From contig JBBDOU010000008.1 of NCBI GenBank assembly GCA_040876885.1, positions 42,986 to 106,985 on the forward strand: a stretch of DNA of 64,000 nt, written 5' to 3'. Both the position numbers and the translations under genes were made by a program. The DNA comes from Minisyncoccota bacterium (GTDB lineage Bacteria > Patescibacteriota > Minisyncoccia > Phycocordibacterales > JABMNX01). The notes beneath the pieces are model-generated. The model saw nothing but the letters and a program-made list of their open reading frames with translations. It searched no databases and was not told the DNA's origin. Below are positions 7,737 through 62,095 of the stretch, in pieces (within the stretch, counting starts at the first letter, position 1; every line of letters begins with the position of its first letter).

Positions 7737-7811
7737 AGAGAGAATCGGTCACGGTCGCTAAATGTTTTGGGGTCAAGTTTCTAAACTTGCTTTGTTAGTA
7801 GAGAGAATCGA
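7737..7811. repeat. Two partial copies of the tRNA-Gly(TCC) T-loop/3' stem flanking an 18-nt motif TTGGGGTCAAGTTTCTAA
   Basis: agagagaatcg at 7737 and 7798 matches the T-arm of the adjacent tRNA (gtagagagaatcgaac at 7932); the same 18-mer recurs at 12986. Confidence 0.5.
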
Positions 7812-7892
7812 CGACTAGTCACTAAGTAAAATTTTCGTCTTTCAGACTTAATTTTACTTAGTGCTTTTCGTCTAGCCTCAGCTAAATACAAA

Positions 7893-7920
7893 AAGACCCC
7901 ATAAAACGTGGGGTCTTTTT
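7893..7920. terminator. Bidirectional hairpin terminator just 3' of tRNA-Gly(TCC)
   Basis: agacccca-taaaacg-tggggtct with T-runs on both strands. Confidence 0.65.
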
Positions 7921-7928
7921 GTATTTTG

Positions 7929-7999
7929 TGCGGGTAGAGAGAATCGAACTCTCGTCTACTGCTTGGAAGGCAGTCATTCTACCACTAAACTATACCCGC
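7929..7999 (-). tRNA. tRNA-Gly (anticodon TCC)
   Basis: Reverse complement GCGGGTATAGTTTAGTGGTAGAATGACTGCCTTCCAAGCAGTAGACGAGAGTTCGATTCTCTCTACCCGCA folds as a cloverleaf; anticodon loop CTTCCAA. Confidence 0.9.
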
Positions 8000-10762: not shown

Positions 10763-10997
10763 ATAATCTTAGTATATCAAAAATTAAAGACTTTTTAAAA
10801 AGTATGCCACAGGTAAGCGTCTTCCTTAATATGAGATCATGGGATATGTCTTGACTATCTCTAAGTTCGTAAACCCACTAAGAGTGGCGGGACACAACTC
10901 AGCCTTTCCTCGCTTCGTGCGTGATTCCGCCGTTCGTGACTTTGTTTTATTTATAAAACAAGAAACACTCCTGTGGTGAATCCCAGTACTTCGCGCA

Positions 10998-11045
10998 CAT
11001 GAAAACAAAAAGATGACTAAAGCTAGCCATCTTTTTGTTTTCATG
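10998..11045 (-). terminator. Long hairpin immediately 3' of tRNA-Pro (18-bp perfect inverted repeat)
   Basis: catgaaaacaaaaagatg ... catctttttgttttcatg. Confidence 0.6.
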
Positions 11046-11118
11046 TCGGGATGCCGGGATTCGAACCCGGAGTCGCCCGCTCCCAAAGCGGGAATGTTAG
11101 CCGTTACACTACATCCCG
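11046..11118 (-). tRNA. tRNA-Pro (anticodon TGG)
   Basis: Reverse complement CGGGATGTAGTGTAACGGCTAACATTCCCGCTTTGGGAGCGGGCGACTCCGGGTTCGAATCCCGGCATCCCGA; anticodon loop TTTGGGA. Confidence 0.88.
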
Positions 11119-12903: not shown

Positions 12904-13007
12904 AAGTGGAGATATTATACTATGTAAATATGTTATTCCAAATTTAAACAGGGAAGTCTGTGGCGCAGATTTATAAGTGATAGTTGTTGGGGTCAAGTTT
13001 CTAAGTT

Positions 13008-13292
13008 CGCCAGGATTCGAACCTTACAGATTCAGTACAGGTTGGCGATATTTTTACAAAATATCTGACAACCTTTTCGAATCCTCTTAGTCGCTACAAA
13101 CAAAATCACCCAATGTTCTCACATCGGGTTCATTTGTTTGTTGTGCGCCTACCAGGATTCGAACCTTACAGATTCAGTACAGGTTGGCGATATTTTTACA
13201 AAATATCTGACAACCTTTTCGAATCCTCTTAGTCGCTACAAACAAAATCACCCAATGTTCTCACATCGGGTTCATTTGTTTGTTGTGCGCCT
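13008..13292. repeat. 142-bp tandem duplication (two units) each carrying the 3' half of tRNA-Arg (T-loop to discriminator) plus 119 bp of downstream spacer
   Basis: caggattcga recurs at 13011, 13153 and 13295 (period 142); units are identical and run directly into the intact tRNA-Arg; the most distal copy (13008-13022) diverges after CCTGG. Confidence 0.85.
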
Positions 13293-13357
13293 ACCAGGAT
13301 TCGAACCCAGAATAACGGTTCCGAAGACCGTTGTGATATCCATTTCACCATAGGCGC
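13286..13357 (-). tRNA. tRNA-Arg (anticodon TCG)
   Basis: Reverse complement GCGCCTATGGTGAAATGGATATCACAACGGTCTTCGGAACCGTTATTCTGGGTTCGAATCCTGGTAGGCGCA; perfect acceptor stem; anticodon loop CTTCGGA. Confidence 0.85.
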
Positions 13358-13420: not shown

Positions 13421-14899
13421 ATGTCAACTATTACACACTCACAAATTCCAAAAGAAATACAAGCGGTAACAGAAGCGCTCGAGAAGGCTGGTTTTGAAGC
13501 GTACCTTATTGGTGGCTGTGTCCGTGACCTCCTTATTGGACGCACCCCTAAGGACTGGGACGTGACCACAAACGCACACCCAGAAAAAATTCAAGAACTT
13601 TTTGAAGAGACATTTTATGAAAACGATTACGGAACAGTGGGTGTTGTTAACGAAACTGAAAACGCGTCACTCAAAGTCGTTGAAATAACTCCATACCGAC
13701 TTGAGACGACATATTCCGATGCACGCCGCCCCGATTCGATTCAGTTCTCAGAGAACCTTGAGGACGACTTAAAGCGTCGAGACTTCACTATGAACGCGAT
13801 AGCCTACAGTGTTTCAACAGGGGGGCTCACAGACCCATATAACGGACAGTCAGACCTTAACGGTAAGAGTATCACCGCTGTAGGAGACCCCTTTGAACGA
13901 TTTGAAGAAGATGCACTTCGCATGCTTCGCGCAATACGGCTCTCAGCGGAACTTGGTTTTACTATTGAAACAAAAACAGCCGAAGCAATTGCAAAGTCTG
14001 CTCCACAGCTTGGAAAAATTGCAAAAGAAAGAATTCGAGATGAATTTCTTCGTATTGTAATGTCTGATAACCCAATGCACGCGCTCATTATTTCAGAAAA
14101 ACTAGGACTACTTCCGTATATTGCACCTGATTTAGAGCGGGGGATTGGTATAGAACAAAACCAAGCACACACCTACGATGTGTTCGAGCATCTCCTGCGC
14201 ACCATGCAACACGGTGCTGATATGCATTGGAATATAGACGTGCGGTTAGCGGGACTCTATCACGATATTTCAAAACCAGAGACACGGAGATGGTCAAAAG
14301 AGAAGGAAGACTGGACGTTTTATGGACATGAGGTTGTTGGCGCACGAGTCGCAAGACGAGCATTTCAAGATTTAAAATTACCAAAGAAACAAACCGACAA
14401 ATTAGTCACAATGGTCCGGTGGCACATGTTTTTCTCTGACCCTGAAAAAATTACACTCTCGGCAGTCAGACGTATGATTAGAAATGTTGGTGAAGAAAAC
14501 ATCTGGGACCTGCTTAACCTGCGTATTTGTGACCGTATTGGTTCGGGGCGTCCTAAAGCACAGCCATTTCGATTTAGAAAATATAAATCAATGGTTGACG
14601 AGGCACTTCGTGACCCTATTTCAGTCGGCATGCTTAAAATAGACGGCGCGGGTGTTATGGAAATCACCGGAGAGAAACCTGGACCACGACTTGGGTACAT
14701 ACTCCACGCGCTTCTTGAGGAGGTGCTTGATGATCCTAAGAGAAACACCGAGGCGTATTTAGAAAAAAAGATAAAAGAGTTACAAGAACTTCCTGAGGAA
14801 ACACTTAAGGCGCACGGAGAACAGGGAAAGCGGAAAAGGGAGGAGTTTGAAGAGGAAGCGGTGAAAGAAATCCGTAAAAAACACTGGGTAGACAAGTAA
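13421..14899 (+). CDS. cca: CCA-adding tRNA nucleotidyltransferase with C-terminal HD domain
   Basis: Pol-beta NTase head signature GGCVRDLLIGRTPKDWDV, RRDFTMNA motif, HD region (YHDISKP). Confidence 0.9.
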   Translation: MSTITHSQIPKEIQAVTEALEKAGFEAYLIGGCVRDLLIGRTPKDWDVTTNAHPEKIQELFEETFYENDYGTVGVVNETENASLKVVEITPYRLETTYSDARRPDSIQFSENLEDDLKRRDFTMNAIAYSVSTGGLTDPYNGQSDLNGKSITAVGDPFERFEEDALRMLRAIRLSAELGFTIETKTAEAIAKSAPQLGKIAKERIRDEFLRIVMSDNPMHALIISEKLGLLPYIAPDLERGIGIEQNQAHTYDVFEHLLRTMQHGADMHWNIDVRLAGLYHDISKPETRRWSKEKEDWTFYGHEVVGARVARRAFQDLKLPKKQTDKLVTMVRWHMFFSDPEKITLSAVRRMIRNVGEENIWDLLNLRICDRIGSGRPKAQPFRFRKYKSMVDEALRDPISVGMLKIDGAGVMEITGEKPGPRLGYILHALLEEVLDDPKRNTEAYLEKKIKELQELPEETLKAHGEQGKRKREEFEEEAVKEIRKKHWVDK

Positions 14900-20582: not shown

Positions 20583-21521
20583 CTACTTTCTGCCTTTACC
20601 ATGAAACTGTTTATGTATATCGTGAAGATGTTTATCGGTTACGTGGGTGTAAATCTGAGTCGTCGCGATATTTGCGTGTCCTAAGAGTGCCTGCACTGAA
20701 CGGAGGTCTGCGCCGTTTTGTAGCAAGTCAGTCGCAAATGAGTGTCGGAGCGTGTGTGGTGTCACTCGCTTATCAATCCCTGCTTTGATTGCATATTGTT
20801 TCACTAAACGTTCTACTCCTCGTGTTGAGAGTCGCATGGAACCACTTTCAGTCTCTGCGCGTTTTGCACCACGACCTAAGTAAATAAAGAGTGCCTCATC
20901 AGTGTCTTTTCTTTTATCTAAATATTTTTTAATCGCACTTTTTGCTCCGAGCGATATAAATACTGGACGTACTTTGCCACCTTTACCACGCACAGAGATT
21001 TCGTCACGACTCCAATCAAGATATCGCGAGAGGGAACACAGCTCTGACACACGAAGTCCTGTAGAGAAGAGAAGCTCGAGTATTGCTCTATCGCGGAGTG
21101 CCTTCACCTCGTCTCCCTCGGGGGACTTAAGGAGTCTTTGAAGTTCTGTTGATGAAATGAGACTCAAGTCCCGTGGGGTTTCTTTTGCAAGCTCTATCGT
21201 GTCAGGAGGAAGGACCTCAAAACCACGTTTCACAAGATATTTTAGGAATTGACGAAGCGCAATAAGATAATAATTCTGTGTACGCCGATTAAGCCCCGCA
21301 CGGTTCAGTTCAAGTCGATATTTTCGTATCTTTTCAGTTGTAATATCTTGTACTTCTTTAGCCCCCGAAAAAACAAAAAACCGAGTGACGTACCGGTTAT
21401 AATTTTCAACCGTCTTGAGTGCACGACCACGCTCAATCTCAATATATTCGAGATATTCTTGCTTGAGTGACTTTAAGTTCTGCGCCATTATATTTATTAT
21501 AGCAGTTATTGTGCGACCCAT
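20583..21521 (-). CDS. xerC: Tyrosine site-specific recombinase (XerC/XerD family)
   Basis: C-terminal catalytic region HTLRHSFATDLLQNGADLRSVQALLGHANIATTQIYTHV. Confidence 0.85.
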   Translation of the reverse strand: MGRTITAIINIMAQNLKSLKQEYLEYIEIERGRALKTVENYNRYVTRFFVFSGAKEVQDITTEKIRKYRLELNRAGLNRRTQNYYLIALRQFLKYLVKRGFEVLPPDTIELAKETPRDLSLISSTELQRLLKSPEGDEVKALRDRAILELLFSTGLRVSELCSLSRYLDWSRDEISVRGKGGKVRPVFISLGAKSAIKKYLDKRKDTDEALFIYLGRGAKRAETESGSMRLSTRGVERLVKQYAIKAGIDKRVTPHTLRHSFATDLLQNGADLRSVQALLGHANIATTQIYTHVTDKHLHDIHKQFHGKGRK

Positions 21522-61190: not shown

Positions 61191-61263
61191 CCGCCCGTAG
61201 CTCAGTTGGTAGAGCAGCTCCCTTTTAAGGAGAATGTCGTAGGTTCAAGTCCTACCGGGCGGA
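61191..61263 (+). tRNA. tRNA-Lys (anticodon TTT)
   Basis: CCGCCCGTAGCTCAGTTGGTAGAGCAGCTCCCTTTTAAGGAGAATGTCGTAGGTTCAAGTCCTACCGGGCGGA; anticodon loop CTTTTAA. Confidence 0.85.
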
Positions 61264-61264
61264 C

Positions 61265-62095
61265 ATGAATGAGTTTAAACAGCAGTGTATTAAGTTGAGA
61301 GAAAAAGACCACACACTTTCTGAAATCATGCAGATAACAGGAAGGTCAAAAACATCTATCTATTTTCACATACAGAACATTGCACTTAGTTCTCTAAAAC
61401 AGAAAGAAATTCGAGATGCAAGTCGCACGAGAGTTCTTGATCTTTCACAAGCAAGGAAAGGTAAAAGCAAAAAACCTTTTAAGAAGTTTCCTCAGTGGAA
61501 CATTCAGGCAGTTTCTTTGGTGGCACACTTACTTTTTGGTGGAGAAATTCAGTCAAATAAATGTGTCTATAGTAACCGAAGCGTTGCTTTATGTAAGAAG
61601 GTCGAAAATTCTATGTGTCTGTTTTATGATTTTGAGCCTAAACGGCGGTATAACAAACAGACGGGAGTAACAAGTATCAGTTATTTTAATGTTGAGCTTA
61701 CATCATATCTTAAGCATAAAGCGAAGGCATTGCTTATTGAGATTGAATTTTTTCCTGAAGAATTTAAGCGAGAATTTTTGCGCGCATTTTTTGACGATGA
61801 AGGGTGTATAGATTTTAAACCTCATAGCGGTACGCGACGAGTTCGTGGGTATCAAAAAGATACAACAATACTATATCTTGTGTGGAAACTTCTTCGAGAT
61901 TTTAATATTAACGCAAAGATTCAACTTCCTAATGAAGTCGTAATATCAAAAAAAGAAAATTTACTAAAGTTTCAAAAAGAAATAGGTTTTTCTATTGGAG
62001 TTAAAATGAATGGAAATAGACCAAATAGCGTCTGGAAAAAACATATGGAAAAAAGTGATATTCTTAAAAAGGCTATAGACTCGTACGGTTCTTAA
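61265..62095 (+). CDS. Free-standing double-motif LAGLIDADG homing endonuclease with N-terminal HTH
   Basis: Motif 2 FLRAFFDDEGCI is canonical; motif 1 LVAHLLFGGEI is degenerate; HTH LSEIMQITGRSKTSIYFHI; begins 2 nt after tRNA-Lys. Confidence 0.65.
   Translation: MNEFKQQCIKLREKDHTLSEIMQITGRSKTSIYFHIQNIALSSLKQKEIRDASRTRVLDLSQARKGKSKKPFKKFPQWNIQAVSLVAHLLFGGEIQSNKCVYSNRSVALCKKVENSMCLFYDFEPKRRYNKQTGVTSISYFNVELTSYLKHKAKALLIEIEFFPEEFKREFLRAFFDDEGCIDFKPHSGTRRVRGYQKDTTILYLVWKLLRDFNINAKIQLPNEVVISKKENLLKFQKEIGFSIGVKMNGNRPNSVWKKHMEKSDILKKAIDSYGS

What the first reader, a model, noticed from the sequence alone, without database searches (positions are those of the whole stretch)
13008..13357. Tandem duplication of the tRNA-Arg 3' half plus spacer (142-bp unit, two extra copies)
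The unit runs from the tRNA-Arg T-loop through the discriminator base and 119 bp of downstream sequence. It occurs twice in perfect tandem next to the intact tRNA-Arg(TCG), with a third, diverged T-loop copy at 13008-13022. Each unit is internally structured: a GATTCGAA...TTCGAATC inverted repeat surrounds an imperfect hairpin (ggttggcgatat...atatctgacaacc). It could be an integration-site footprint (att-like repeats of a tRNA 3' end), a slippage duplication, or a source of tRNA-3'-half-derived small RNAs.
Basis: seen in the sequence. Interest (0 to 1): 0.6.

Follow-up and report, generated by a model that had tools for sequence, protein, structure and literature searches.

The report
Tandem structured elements behind tRNA-Arg
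The two identical 142-base units behind this tRNA-Arg gene are copies of a small, gene-less, hairpin-rich element that sits behind many different tRNA genes (and a tmRNA gene) in ultra-small Patescibacteria, each time with a spare copy of that tRNA's tail; Rfam 15 and the papers I could search do not describe it.

Summary
There are 2.1 perfect copies of a 142-bp unit at 13010-13307, next to tRNA-Arg(TCG), which lies on the minus strand. The copy number is not secure, because the public assembly has a 100-N scaffold gap inside the second unit.

It is not a one-off slippage event. Each unit has four parts: a terminator-like hairpin, an inverted complement of the tRNA 3' end, a conserved three-way-junction core, and a direct copy of the tRNA from the T-loop to its 3' end.

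- A 26-nt signature of the core hit at least 120 metagenome stretches, downstream of tRNAs of about 28 anticodon classes, one tmRNA gene and one intron-containing tRNA.
- Covariation is strong (94% of cells paired against 74% in shuffles), and wobble pairs favour the tRNA-sense strand.
- There is no Rfam 15 match and no hit in IMG/VR viral contigs.
- The closest relatives have an empty site, or a different core at the same tRNA.
- Tandem arrays recur in other loci.

My best reading is a non-autonomous cassette that inserts at the T-loop, restores the tRNA 3' end and pushes the old end outward. Arrays would grow by repeated insertion or unequal crossover. The enzyme is unknown, and so is whether the element acts as single-stranded DNA or RNA.

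The parts
13285..13357 (-). Intact tRNA-Arg(TCG). Its last 21 nt (13285-13305, TTCGAATCCTGGTAGGCGCAC) are the segment S(+) that is repeated downstream.
   Evidence: ARAGORN; Rfam tRNA model 61.7 bits.
13238..13284 (-). Hairpin A of the proximal unit: a terminator-like stem (13250-13271) with an A-tract and a T-tract. It is the centre of a long imperfect palindrome formed by the tRNA 3' end and its inverted complement.
   Evidence: Terminator scan; fold; inverted repeats I3 and I8.
13218..13237 (-). S(-) of the proximal unit, AGCGACTAAGAGGATTCGAA. It is the inverted complement of the tRNA's T-loop, T-stem and acceptor 3' strand (16 of 19 bases).
   Evidence: Inverted repeats I4 and I8. The same feature covaries with tRNA identity in relatives.
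13164..13217 (-). Core of the proximal unit: hairpin B (13182-13215), the joiner UGUACU, and hairpin C (13161-13175, GAAUC UGUAA GGUUC).
   Evidence: Covariance model R1 hit at 13149-13230, 76.8 bits, against 12 bits on the opposite strand; covariation in A1.
13143..13163 (-). Direct copy of the tRNA 3' end, TTCGAATCCTGGTAGGCGCAC (S(+) copy). It lies at the end of the proximal unit and the start of the distal unit.
   Evidence: 23 of 24 bases match the tRNA tail; perfect repeat.
13096..13142 (-). Hairpin A of the distal unit (terminator-like stem at 13108-13129).
13076..13095 (-). S(-) of the distal unit.
   Evidence: Inverted repeats I6 and I11.
13022..13075 (-). Core of the distal unit (hairpin B at 13040-13073, hairpin C at 13019-13033).
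   Evidence: R1 hit at 13007-13088, 75.8 bits.
13010..13021 (-). Truncated distal S(+), TTCGAATCCTGG. The acceptor strand is missing.
   Evidence: Sequence; end of the tandem repeat.
12987..13009 (-). Remnant that looks like the right end of a second element type ('family 2'): CGAAC TTAGAAACTTGACCCCAA. It lies distal to the array, as an older and decayed insertion would.
   Evidence: The exact 18-mer also occurs at 7767-7784 behind tRNA-Gly(TCC). It resembles the right ends in L026, L024 and L087.

Best explanation
The 142-bp units are two (or possibly more) tandem copies of a reduced member of a family of small, gene-less, hairpin-rich elements. These elements sit between a tRNA or tmRNA gene and a displaced copy of that gene's 3' end in Patescibacteria.

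Read on the tRNA strand, the layout is:
1. the tRNA, ending in S(+), the segment from the T-loop to the 3' end;
2. a hairpin, often a terminator;
3. S(-), the inverted complement of S;
4. a conserved core made of the joiner GAA(A/G), hairpin B, the joiner GUACUGA and hairpin C with loop CUGUAAG;
5. S(+) again;
6. the original trailer.

Most likely mechanism (inferred, not shown). The element is a non-autonomous cassette that recombines into the T-loop of its target gene. It brings a replacement 3' end with its own terminator, so the tRNA stays intact. The old 3' end is pushed outward. Because insertion regenerates an intact T-loop, a further insertion there extends the array next to the tRNA; unequal crossover between the S(+) repeats would do the same. 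The newest units lie closest to the tRNA and the oldest, most decayed ones lie furthest away.

The S(+)/S(-) pairing and the covarying hairpins suggest that the active form is a folded single strand of tRNA-sense polarity. That could be single-stranded DNA, as with integron attC sites, the CTX phage attP site or REPIN and IS200/IS605-type elements, acted on by an enzyme supplied in trans. It could instead be an RNA.

What is shown: the anatomy, membership of the family, the covariation, the strand bias, the range of targets, the presence/absence differences among relatives and the recurrence of arrays.

What is inferred: mobility, the point of insertion, the enzyme, and whether the active form is DNA or RNA.
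For: Family and anatomy:
- In 81 related loci, about 20 of 200 tRNA genes carry a same-strand downstream copy of their last 17 nt, 75-242 nt away. None is upstream or inverted. They share one architecture.
- A 26-nt core signature hit at least 120 metagenome stretches. In the 80 loci returned, it always lay outside the tRNA. In 57 of 87 matches a same-strand tRNA lay within 700 nt upstream, typically 66-330 nt. These tRNAs cover about 28 anticodon classes.
- One copy lies behind a tmRNA gene and one behind a tRNA that contains a group I intron.

Structure:
- RNAalifold predicts a three-way junction, and 17 of 26 pairs show changes on both sides.
- 94.4% of cells are paired, against 73.7% in shuffles. 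The covariation score is 0.479 against 0.124 (0 of 500 shuffles reach it), and slid controls stay at or below 0.147.
- T-loop base 59 is complementary to its partner in S(-) in 56 of 61 distinct modules, using all four Watson-Crick pairs.
- There are 25 G.U cells against 7 A.C cells. The model scores 76-77 bits on the tRNA strand and 12 bits on the other.

Cassette-like behaviour:
- In about three dozen loci, identity of the distal copy to the tRNA stops at the tRNA's last base. In most of them the trailers differ immediately afterwards.
- Where the two copies differ, S(-) follows the tRNA-side copy (L095, L102, L131, L166).
- The distal copy is usually followed by a second, separate terminator.

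Turnover:
- The closest relatives, judged by the neighbouring CCA-adding enzyme, differ. L083 (86% identity) has an empty site, L087-L090 (85%) have a different core behind the same tRNA-Arg, and L091 (80%) has none.
- Two different tRNAs on one 1.5-kb contig (L133) carry identical 88-nt cores with tRNA-specific flanks.
- Tandem arrays recur in L098, L125/L151, L160, L145, L166 and L073.
- In the window, a decayed second-type remnant lies distal to the array.
Against: - No transposase or integrase was seen inside any copy, and no autonomous version turned up among more than 120 loci. Mobility is therefore inferred from distribution alone.
- A cassette tied to one tRNA does not explain how the same core came to carry matching S(+) and S(-) arms for about 28 tRNA classes. 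Identical cores on two tRNAs (L133) could equally reflect gene conversion between old copies.
- A 142-bp double-stranded circle would be a strained recombination substrate.
- The strong structural covariation and conserved loops are more typical of a functional RNA than of a recombination site.
- About half of the loci lack an obvious terminator between the tRNA and the core, so co-transcription with the tRNA is possible.
- The metagenome sample was chosen with a strict sequence pattern, which inflates the apparent conservation of hairpin C and the GUACUGA joiner.
- The copy number in the window rests on a region that is a scaffold gap in the public record.
Confidence: 0.5

Rival explanations
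1. A host-useful, tRNA-like non-coding RNA. The module would be transcribed with the tRNA, by read-through or from its own promoter. It would fold into an acceptor-plus-T-stem helix identical to that of its neighbour tRNA, carrying arms P0, B and C. It would then act at the RNA level, for example as a processing or termination module, as a decoy or sensor for enzymes that bind tRNA 3' ends, or as a substrate of RNase P, RNase Z or the CCA-adding enzyme.
For: - Covariation in all three helices and conserved single-stranded joiners and loops.
- A G.U bias on the tRNA-sense strand.
- The copy preserves the acceptor strand plus the discriminator base exactly.
- In many members the acceptor complement, a hairpin with a GG-containing loop (CUGGGAG), hairpin B, a 5-nt joiner and a 5-bp hairpin C follow the order of tRNA arms.
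- About half of the loci have no clear terminator between the tRNA and the module.
Against: - Occurrence is patchy: about 10% of tRNAs, and present or absent among genus-level relatives.
- There are tandem arrays of identical units, including units without any acceptor strand (L098).
- Decayed copies and pseudo-tRNA rearrangements occur around it.
- In the window and in about half of the loci, a terminator-like hairpin lies between the tRNA and the module, and no promoter-like site lies inside the unit.
- Where the two S(+) copies differ, S(-) follows the upstream tRNA rather than the module's own 3' strand.
- No expression data are available.
Confidence: 0.2
2. Ordinary footprints: decayed remnants (CIME-like attL/attR pairs) of conventional integrase-bearing prophages or genomic islands that once sat in these tRNA genes. 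The array would be a tandem accretion followed by deletion.
For: - Direct repeats of the tRNA 3' end that start in the T-loop and end at the tRNA end are the classic signature of integrase-mediated integration. Partial tRNA genes of this origin are described in PMC9897764, and CIMEs and tandem accretion are defined in PMC5704250.
- L053 has a 0.7-kb cargo segment, encoding a 116-aa ORF, between two tRNA-Gly 3' copies.
- A third, simpler class of repeats starts near the anticodon stem (L002, L024, L047).
Against: - More than 100 copies share one compact structured core with compensatory changes. Random deletion remnants would not do this.
- No copy among at least 120 loci retains an integrase.
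- The signature is absent from 2.9 million IMG/VR viral contigs.
- The inverted complement S(-), which tracks each tRNA, is not a feature of known att sites.
Confidence: 0.12
3. A replication error rather than an element: an inverted triplication, S(+)-S(-)-S(+), made by two template switches at hairpins (the terminator and a second hairpin), followed by slippage that duplicated the 142-bp unit.
For: - The arrangement is formally an inverted triplication.
- In the window, L098, L133 and L160 the palindrome runs from the tRNA 3' end through the trailer and is centred on the terminator loop.
- In L110 the duplication breaks in the terminator loop.
- Template switching at short inverted repeats is a known source of such structures (PMC11790251).
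Against: - In most loci the trailers after the two S(+) copies differ from the first base onward, although the tRNA parts are identical. The duplicated segment therefore does not reach the terminator.
- The second junction is always the same foreign, conserved core.
- The same product would have had to arise independently at about 28 tRNA classes.
Confidence: 0.06
4. An assembly artefact, or a purely local slippage duplication with no wider meaning.
For: - There is a 100-N scaffold gap inside unit 2 of the deposited assembly.
- The perfect identity of the units is what a collapsed or expanded repeat would look like.
Against: - The unit-to-unit, flank-to-unit and unit-to-tRNA junctions are present in contiguous sequence of the public record and in Logan assemblies of other runs.
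- A single unit would still be a member of the family.
Confidence: 0.03

Closest known systems
attL/attR repeats of tRNA and tmRNA 3' ends, left by integrase-mediated integration of prophages and genomic islands (T-loop sublocation class of Williams 2002, recalled from memory; partial tRNA genes in PMC9897764)
   Same: - Same-strand direct repeats of the tRNA 3' segment.
- The left boundary is in the T-loop and identity ends at the tRNA 3' end.
- The tRNA is kept intact.
- tmRNA genes are also targeted.
- Presence varies among relatives.
   Different: - The inserted DNA is only 88-190 bp and has no integrase or any other gene.
- It carries a conserved structured core and an inverted complement of the tRNA end.
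- One core family serves about 28 tRNA classes.
CIMEs (cis-mobilizable elements) and tandem accretion at tRNA genes (PMC5704250); tandem islands at the Dehalococcoides tmRNA gene (PMC3146451, abstract only)
   Same: - Gene-poor elements bounded by att sites.
- Arrays built by successive site-specific insertion at the 3' end of the same gene, with older and decayed members alongside.
   Different: - CIMEs are kilobase-scale decay products with no shared structured core.
- Here the units are about 0.1-0.2 kb and are conserved as a family.
Recombination sites that fold from single-stranded DNA: integron attC sites and the CTX phage attP hairpin used by XerCD (recalled from memory)
   Same: - Imperfect inverted repeats that fold to rebuild a duplex copy of the target site.
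- Strand-specific folding.
- No recombinase gene within the unit.
- Arrays next to a fixed site.
- The host genome has a Xer-like recombinase (20583-21521).
   Different: - No link to any recombinase has been shown.
- The arms are tRNA-specific rather than a fixed consensus.
- Extra conserved hairpins B, C and P0 have no counterpart in those sites.
REPIN/RAYT elements and the IS200/IS605-derived palindromic elements called PATEs (recalled from memory)
   Same: - Small, gene-less, hairpin-forming extragenic repeats mobilised in trans.
- Activity on one strand.
- Location beside terminators.
   Different: - Those elements have fixed sequences and no duplicated target.
- No Y1 transposase was looked for or found here.
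tRNA-like RNA domains: the tRNA-like domain of tmRNA, viral tRNA-like structures, and mascRNA
   Same: - A helix built from acceptor and T-stem strands that ends at the discriminator base.
- Arms arranged in cloverleaf order.
   Different: - The Rfam tRNA and tRNA-like models do not hit it.
- The T-loop is replaced by a branched insertion.
- The acceptor sequence copies whichever tRNA lies upstream.

Membership tests
The tRNA/tmRNA-linked structured element family defined here (model R1) | The core matches the covariance model on the tRNA-sense strand. | tested here: met
   Window hits at 13149-13230 (76.8 bits) and 13007-13088 (75.8 bits), against 12 bits on the other strand.
The tRNA/tmRNA-linked structured element family defined here (model R1) | The element lies downstream of a tRNA on the same strand and ends in a copy of that tRNA from the T-loop to the 3' end. 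It is preceded by the inverted complement of that segment. | tested here: met
   The window unit lacks the P0 hairpin and the apical loop of hairpin B that many members have, so it is a reduced member.
Integrase-type integrative element (att repeats at a tRNA gene) | Direct repeats of the tRNA 3' segment flank the inserted DNA, and the tRNA is regenerated. | tested here: met
Integrase-type integrative element (att repeats at a tRNA gene) | A tyrosine or serine recombinase gene lies inside the element. | tested here: not met
   The only ORF of at least 50 aa across the array (13138-13353 +, 71 aa) also overlaps the tRNA and was not followed up. Units elsewhere are 88-190 bp. The only integrase-family gene seen in the window is Xer-like and about 7 kb away.
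Integrase-type integrative element (att repeats at a tRNA gene) | Excision and integration can be demonstrated (empty site, circular junction). | not testable with these tools
   Only presence/absence between related genomes was seen.
MITE (miniature inverted-repeat transposable element) | Terminal inverted repeats that belong to the element, plus a short target-site duplication. | tested here: not met
   The inverted repeats are copies of each target tRNA and differ from tRNA to tRNA. The direct repeat is about 20 nt and ends at the tRNA end.
Any Rfam 15 RNA family (ribozymes, tRNA-like RNAs, sRNAs) | A match to a curated covariance model. | tested here: not met
   There were no hits at E<=1 over the units in the window or over canonical members. 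Only the neighbouring tRNA, tmRNA and group I intron genes were hit.
Folded single-stranded recombination site (attC or CTX attP type) | Strand-specific folding of inverted arms into a duplex that mimics the target. | tested here: inconclusive
   S(-) pairs with S(+) and covaries with it, and wobble pairs favour one strand. RNA folding would give the same signals.
Folded single-stranded recombination site (attC or CTX attP type) | A cognate recombinase acts on the folded strand. | not testable with these tools
   A Xer-like gene is present in the window, but nothing links it to the element.
Simple tandem duplication by slippage | The unit has no relatives elsewhere and no internal organisation shared with other loci. 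| tested here: not met

The most novel reading that the evidence does not exclude
This is a previously unrecognised class of selfish or semi-domesticated nucleic-acid element. It would be a gene-less unit of about 90-190 nt that folds as a single strand into a mimic of the acceptor/T-arm half of whichever tRNA or tmRNA it sits behind. It would use that mimicry to insert at the universal T-loop and regenerate the tRNA 3' end, re-templating both of its arms from the target. That would be a new mode of target recognition and insertion, not a decayed island.
Probability: 0.3. Interest if true: 0.88.

Novelty: new variant of a known kind. Interest (0 to 1): 0.72.

Why it matters
If this reading holds, tRNA and tmRNA genes of Patescibacteria are routinely followed by a small structured element that no annotation pipeline reports. 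Three consequences follow.

- It would explain assembly breaks and scaffold gaps next to tRNA genes in these metagenome-assembled genomes. Two of the loci seen here, the window's own record and L073, have 100-N gaps inside such arrays.
- It would explain the frequent inversions and pseudo-tRNA fragments in an otherwise syntenic tRNA cluster.
- It would add a compact case of tRNA mimicry tied to genome plasticity. The case has testable biochemistry: which enzyme recognises the T-loop mimic, and whether that mimic is DNA or RNA.

Model R1 and the 26-nt signature make a census of the family immediately possible.

Tried and rejected
- Rfam 15 at a permissive threshold, on the window and on 20 related loci. 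Only the neighbouring tRNAs, a tmRNA and a group I intron were hit.
- A hammerhead-type or other known self-cleaving ribozyme. I mapped the joiners (GAA(A/G), GUACUGA) onto the hammerhead core by eye. The order and sequence do not fit, and Rfam agrees.
- Retro-copying from mature tRNA. S(-) does not start with TGG, the complement of CCA, in the loci I read where the gene lacks CCA (L098, L160). S(-) also runs through position 58, where a methylated base would stop a reverse transcriptase. I dropped this idea.
- A phage attP site. The 26-nt signature has 0 hits in IMG/VR.
- A link to the LAGLIDADG ORF that abuts tRNA-Lys. There is no duplicated tRNA-Lys tail anywhere in the window, so no link is shown.
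- Further copies of the unit in the 64 kb window. There are none beyond the two.
- Literature. Seven full-text searches found no description of this element. Williams 2002 is not in the held library.
- The stable DNA mini-hairpin d(GCGAAGC), recalled from memory, as a hint that the element acts as single-stranded DNA. GC[GA]AAGC occurs in 11 of 57 modules, against 0.7 expected. This is suggestive only.
- The resemblance of the hairpin C loop CUGUAAG to an anticodon loop or a queuine-transglycosylase recognition site. I noted it but did not test it.

Full report
**1. The observation.** Tandem Repeats Finder reports one array at 13010-13307 with period 142, 2.1 copies, 100% matches and no indels. 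The repeat finder gives 13010-13151 and 13152-13293 as identical. tRNA-Arg(TCG) lies on the minus strand at 13285-13357, so everything below is read on the minus strand.

Downstream of the tRNA come, in order:
- Hairpin A, which is terminator-like: a 9-bp stem followed by a T-rich tail.
- AGCGACTAAGAGGATTCGAA, which is the inverted complement (16 of 19 bases) of the tRNA's T-loop, T-stem and acceptor 3' strand.
- Hairpin B.
- The short hairpin C, GAAUC-UGUAA-GGUUC.
- A 23-of-24-base copy of the tRNA 3' end.

The whole series is then repeated once, ending in only TTCGAATCCTGG. The layout is [14]-[128]-[14]-[128]-[14]. There is one full and one truncated extra tRNA tail, not two full ones.

**2. 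How solid is the copy number?** The window is identical to NCBI GCA_040904045.1 contig JBBDUD010000007.1, except that the record has exactly 100 N in place of window 13207-13252, inside unit 2. Logan assemblies of sister runs confirm the flank-to-unit junction (L216). L082 breaks exactly where a k-mer assembly graph must branch between the unit-to-tRNA and unit-to-unit junctions. At least two units exist; the exact number is unresolved. A second locus of the same kind (L073, two 168-bp units behind tRNA-Arg) also has a 100-N gap inside its array.

**3. Organism and synteny.** The adjacent gene at 13421-14899 encodes a CCA-adding enzyme. Its relatives come from Patescibacteria (Paceibacterota/Parcubacteria) metagenome-assembled genomes. 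The block tRNA-Gly(TCC), tRNA-Pro(TGG), tRNA-Gly(GCC), tRNA-Arg(TCG), cca is widely conserved. The orientation of individual tRNAs flips often, and the Gly-Arg spacer ranges from 1 nt to 1.5 kb.

**4. The repeat is one instance of a general pattern.** In 81 loci holding 200 tRNA genes, about 20 tRNAs (Pro, Gly, Arg) have a copy of their last 17 nt on the same strand, 75-242 nt downstream. None is upstream or inverted. Identity typically begins inside the T-loop (TT|CGA or TTC|GA).

The intervening DNA shares one architecture:
- a hairpin;
- the complement of that particular tRNA's T-arm, for example CAGGACTCGAA, CAGGAATCGAA, TGGGATTCGAA, GGAGAATCGAA and GGGGTAATCGAAAC;
- a long hairpin and a short hairpin;
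- the tail copy, usually followed by a second terminator.

At least two core types exist. 'Family 1' includes the window. 'Family 2' has a right end of the form ...TTAGnnACnTGnGACC|CGA.

**5. Breadth.** In the 80 loci returned:
- It is never inside a tRNA. In 57 of 87 matches a same-strand tRNA lies within 700 nt upstream, typically 66-330 nt, and these tRNAs cover about 28 anticodon classes (15 amino acids).
- The bases after TCGANTCC are that tRNA's own acceptor strand.

Several cases with no detected tRNA have an explanation. One module follows a tmRNA gene (L173) and one follows a tRNA interrupted by a group I intron (L147). Others are contig ends or degenerate pseudo-tRNAs. The signature has no hit in IMG/VR viral contigs.

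**6. Structure.** I aligned 37 metagenome modules plus the window unit (A1).
- RNAalifold folds the alignment into a three-way junction. P1 is S(-) paired with S(+); the other two arms are B and C. 17 of 26 pairs show changes on both sides.
- In the pair-count control, 94.4% of cells are paired against 73.7% in shuffles. The covariation score is 0.479 against 0.124 (0 of 500 shuffles reach it), and all slid registers score 0.147 or less.
- T-loop base 59 is complementary to its partner in S(-) in 56 of 61 distinct modules, with all four Watson-Crick combinations.
- Wobble pairs favour the tRNA-sense strand: 25 G.U cells against 7 A.C cells.
- Covariance model R1 scores the two window units at 76.8 and 75.8 bits, against 12 bits on the opposite strand.
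- R1 finds 15 significant hits in 740 kb of genome loci, including the two window units; the other 13 are all in Patescibacteria-type records. It finds 106 hits in 438 kb of metagenome loci, often several per contig.
- No Rfam 15 family matches.

Many members carry an extra hairpin, P0 (loop CUGGGAG), between the acceptor complement and the T-arm complement. Many also have a conserved apical motif, GAGCGAAGCGAA, on hairpin B. The window unit lacks both, so it is a reduced member.

**7. Signs of a cassette that inserts at the T-loop.**
- (a) In about three dozen independent loci, the distal copy matches the tRNA up to its last base. In most of them the next bases differ at once. This is expected if the proximal 3' end came in with the element and only the tRNA part is under selection.
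- (b) Where the two S(+) copies differ, S(-) follows the tRNA-side copy (L095, L102, L131, L166).
- (c) The distal copy is typically followed by its own terminator.
- (d) The closest relatives differ. L083/L085 have an empty site, L087-L090 have a family-2 core behind the same tRNA-Arg with a homologous hairpin A, and L091 has no element.
- (e) Tandem arrays recur in L098 (at least four 88-nt units), L125/L151, L160, L145, L166 and L073.
- (f) In the window, the array is followed distally by a family-2 right-end remnant. Its 18-mer recurs behind tRNA-Gly(TCC), where further decayed tail copies lie. This is the order expected if new insertions enter at the functional T-loop.
- (g) On one 1.5-kb contig (L133), tRNA-Lys and tRNA-Leu carry identical 88-nt cores with tRNA-specific arms.

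**8. What remains unexplained.**
- No copy encodes a protein, and no autonomous version was seen.
- It is unclear how one core family acquires matching S(+) and S(-) arms for so many tRNAs. The arms could be re-templated at insertion. Alternatively, gene conversion could homogenise cores between old copies.
- The data do not distinguish folded single-stranded DNA from RNA.
- About half of the loci have a terminator-like hairpin between the tRNA and the core, and half do not. In the window the hairpin is terminator-like, and no promoter-like site lies inside the unit.
- The window does encode a Xer-like tyrosine recombinase (20583-21521), but nothing ties it to the element.

**9. Comparison with what is known.** The nearest known things are:
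- att-type partial tRNA genes left by integrative elements (PMC9897764; Williams 2002, from memory);
- CIMEs and tandem accretion (PMC5704250);
- folded single-strand recombination sites (integron attC, CTX attP; from memory);
- REPIN and PATE-type repeats (from memory).

The element shares features with each but fails a defining test of each. It has no integrase. Its inverted repeats come from the target rather than from the element. It has no fixed consensus arms. Seven full-text searches found no description of it.

**10. Verdict.** The main result is that the 'spacer' belongs to a widespread, structured family linked to tRNA and tmRNA genes that Rfam 15 and the searched literature do not describe. 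I put the mobile-cassette reading at about 0.5, a host RNA function at about 0.2, ordinary decayed islands at about 0.12, and the other rivals below 0.1.

Noticed in passing
window 13207-13252; L081/L214 2733-2832; L073 3610-3709: The public record of this contig has a 100-N scaffold gap exactly inside the second unit. A related locus with a tandem array of the same element type also has a 100-N gap. These elements appear to break short-read assemblies next to tRNA genes.
   Followed up: partly
window 7737-7927 (minus strand), downstream of tRNA-Gly(TCC) 7928-7999: This stretch holds decayed 'family 2' elements: a terminator, then a 13-nt exact copy of the tRNA tail (7798-7810), then the 18-mer TTAGAAACTTGACCCCAA (7767-7784), then a second partial tail copy, GATTCTCTCT (about 7737-7746). 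The same 18-mer lies at 12987-13004.
   Followed up: partly
window 10830-11044 (minus strand), downstream of tRNA-Pro(TGG) 11045-11118: A long terminator hairpin is followed by CTGGGATTC, the complement of the tRNA-Pro T-arm, and by a degenerate tail-like sequence. This is probably a decayed element of the same general kind.
   Followed up: no
window 61265-62095 (+): An ORF of 276 aa with a LAGLIDADG_3 domain starts one base after the 3' end of tRNA-Lys(TTT) (61191-61264). It is a free-standing homing-endonuclease-like gene that abuts a tRNA. No duplicated tRNA-Lys tail exists in the window.
   Followed up: partly
window 20583-21521 (-): A 312-aa tyrosine recombinase with a Xer-like architecture (Phage_integrase domain plus an N-terminal SAM-like domain). 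It is the only recombinase-like gene among the 10 ORFs I screened in the window, and it is a candidate trans-acting enzyme.
   Followed up: no
L001-L080, upstream of the cca gene: Within the conserved cluster tRNA-Gly/Pro/Gly/Arg-cca, individual tRNA genes are often inverted relative to one another between genomes, and spacers vary from 1 nt to 1.5 kb. This suggests recurrent recombination at or near the tRNA genes.
   Followed up: no
L173 239-798; L147 8668-9129: The same structured module follows a tmRNA gene (Rfam 137 bits) in L173. In L147 it follows a tRNA interrupted by a group I intron (Rfam 82 bits).
   Followed up: partly
L053 1260-2209: Behind tRNA-Gly(TCC) lies a 142-nt family-2 element, then a 0.7-kb segment encoding a 116-aa ORF with a signal-peptide-like N-terminus on the opposite strand, then a third copy of the tRNA tail and a terminator. 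A small cargo-bearing islet uses the same kind of repeats.
   Followed up: partly
L097/L156 and L118: In these loci the core sits inside what looks like the T-arm of a degenerate tRNA copy, with D-arm and anticodon-arm remnants upstream. There is no S(+)-hairpin-S(-) part, and an intact tRNA of the same kind lies next to it. These could be simple T-loop insertions or products of recombination between modules.
   Followed up: no
L002, L024 (119-284), L047: A third, simpler class of tRNA-Pro tail duplications starts near the anticodon-stem 3' strand. The repeats are about 33 nt, with a 60-70-nt hairpin-containing insert and no family-1 or family-2 core.
   Followed up: no
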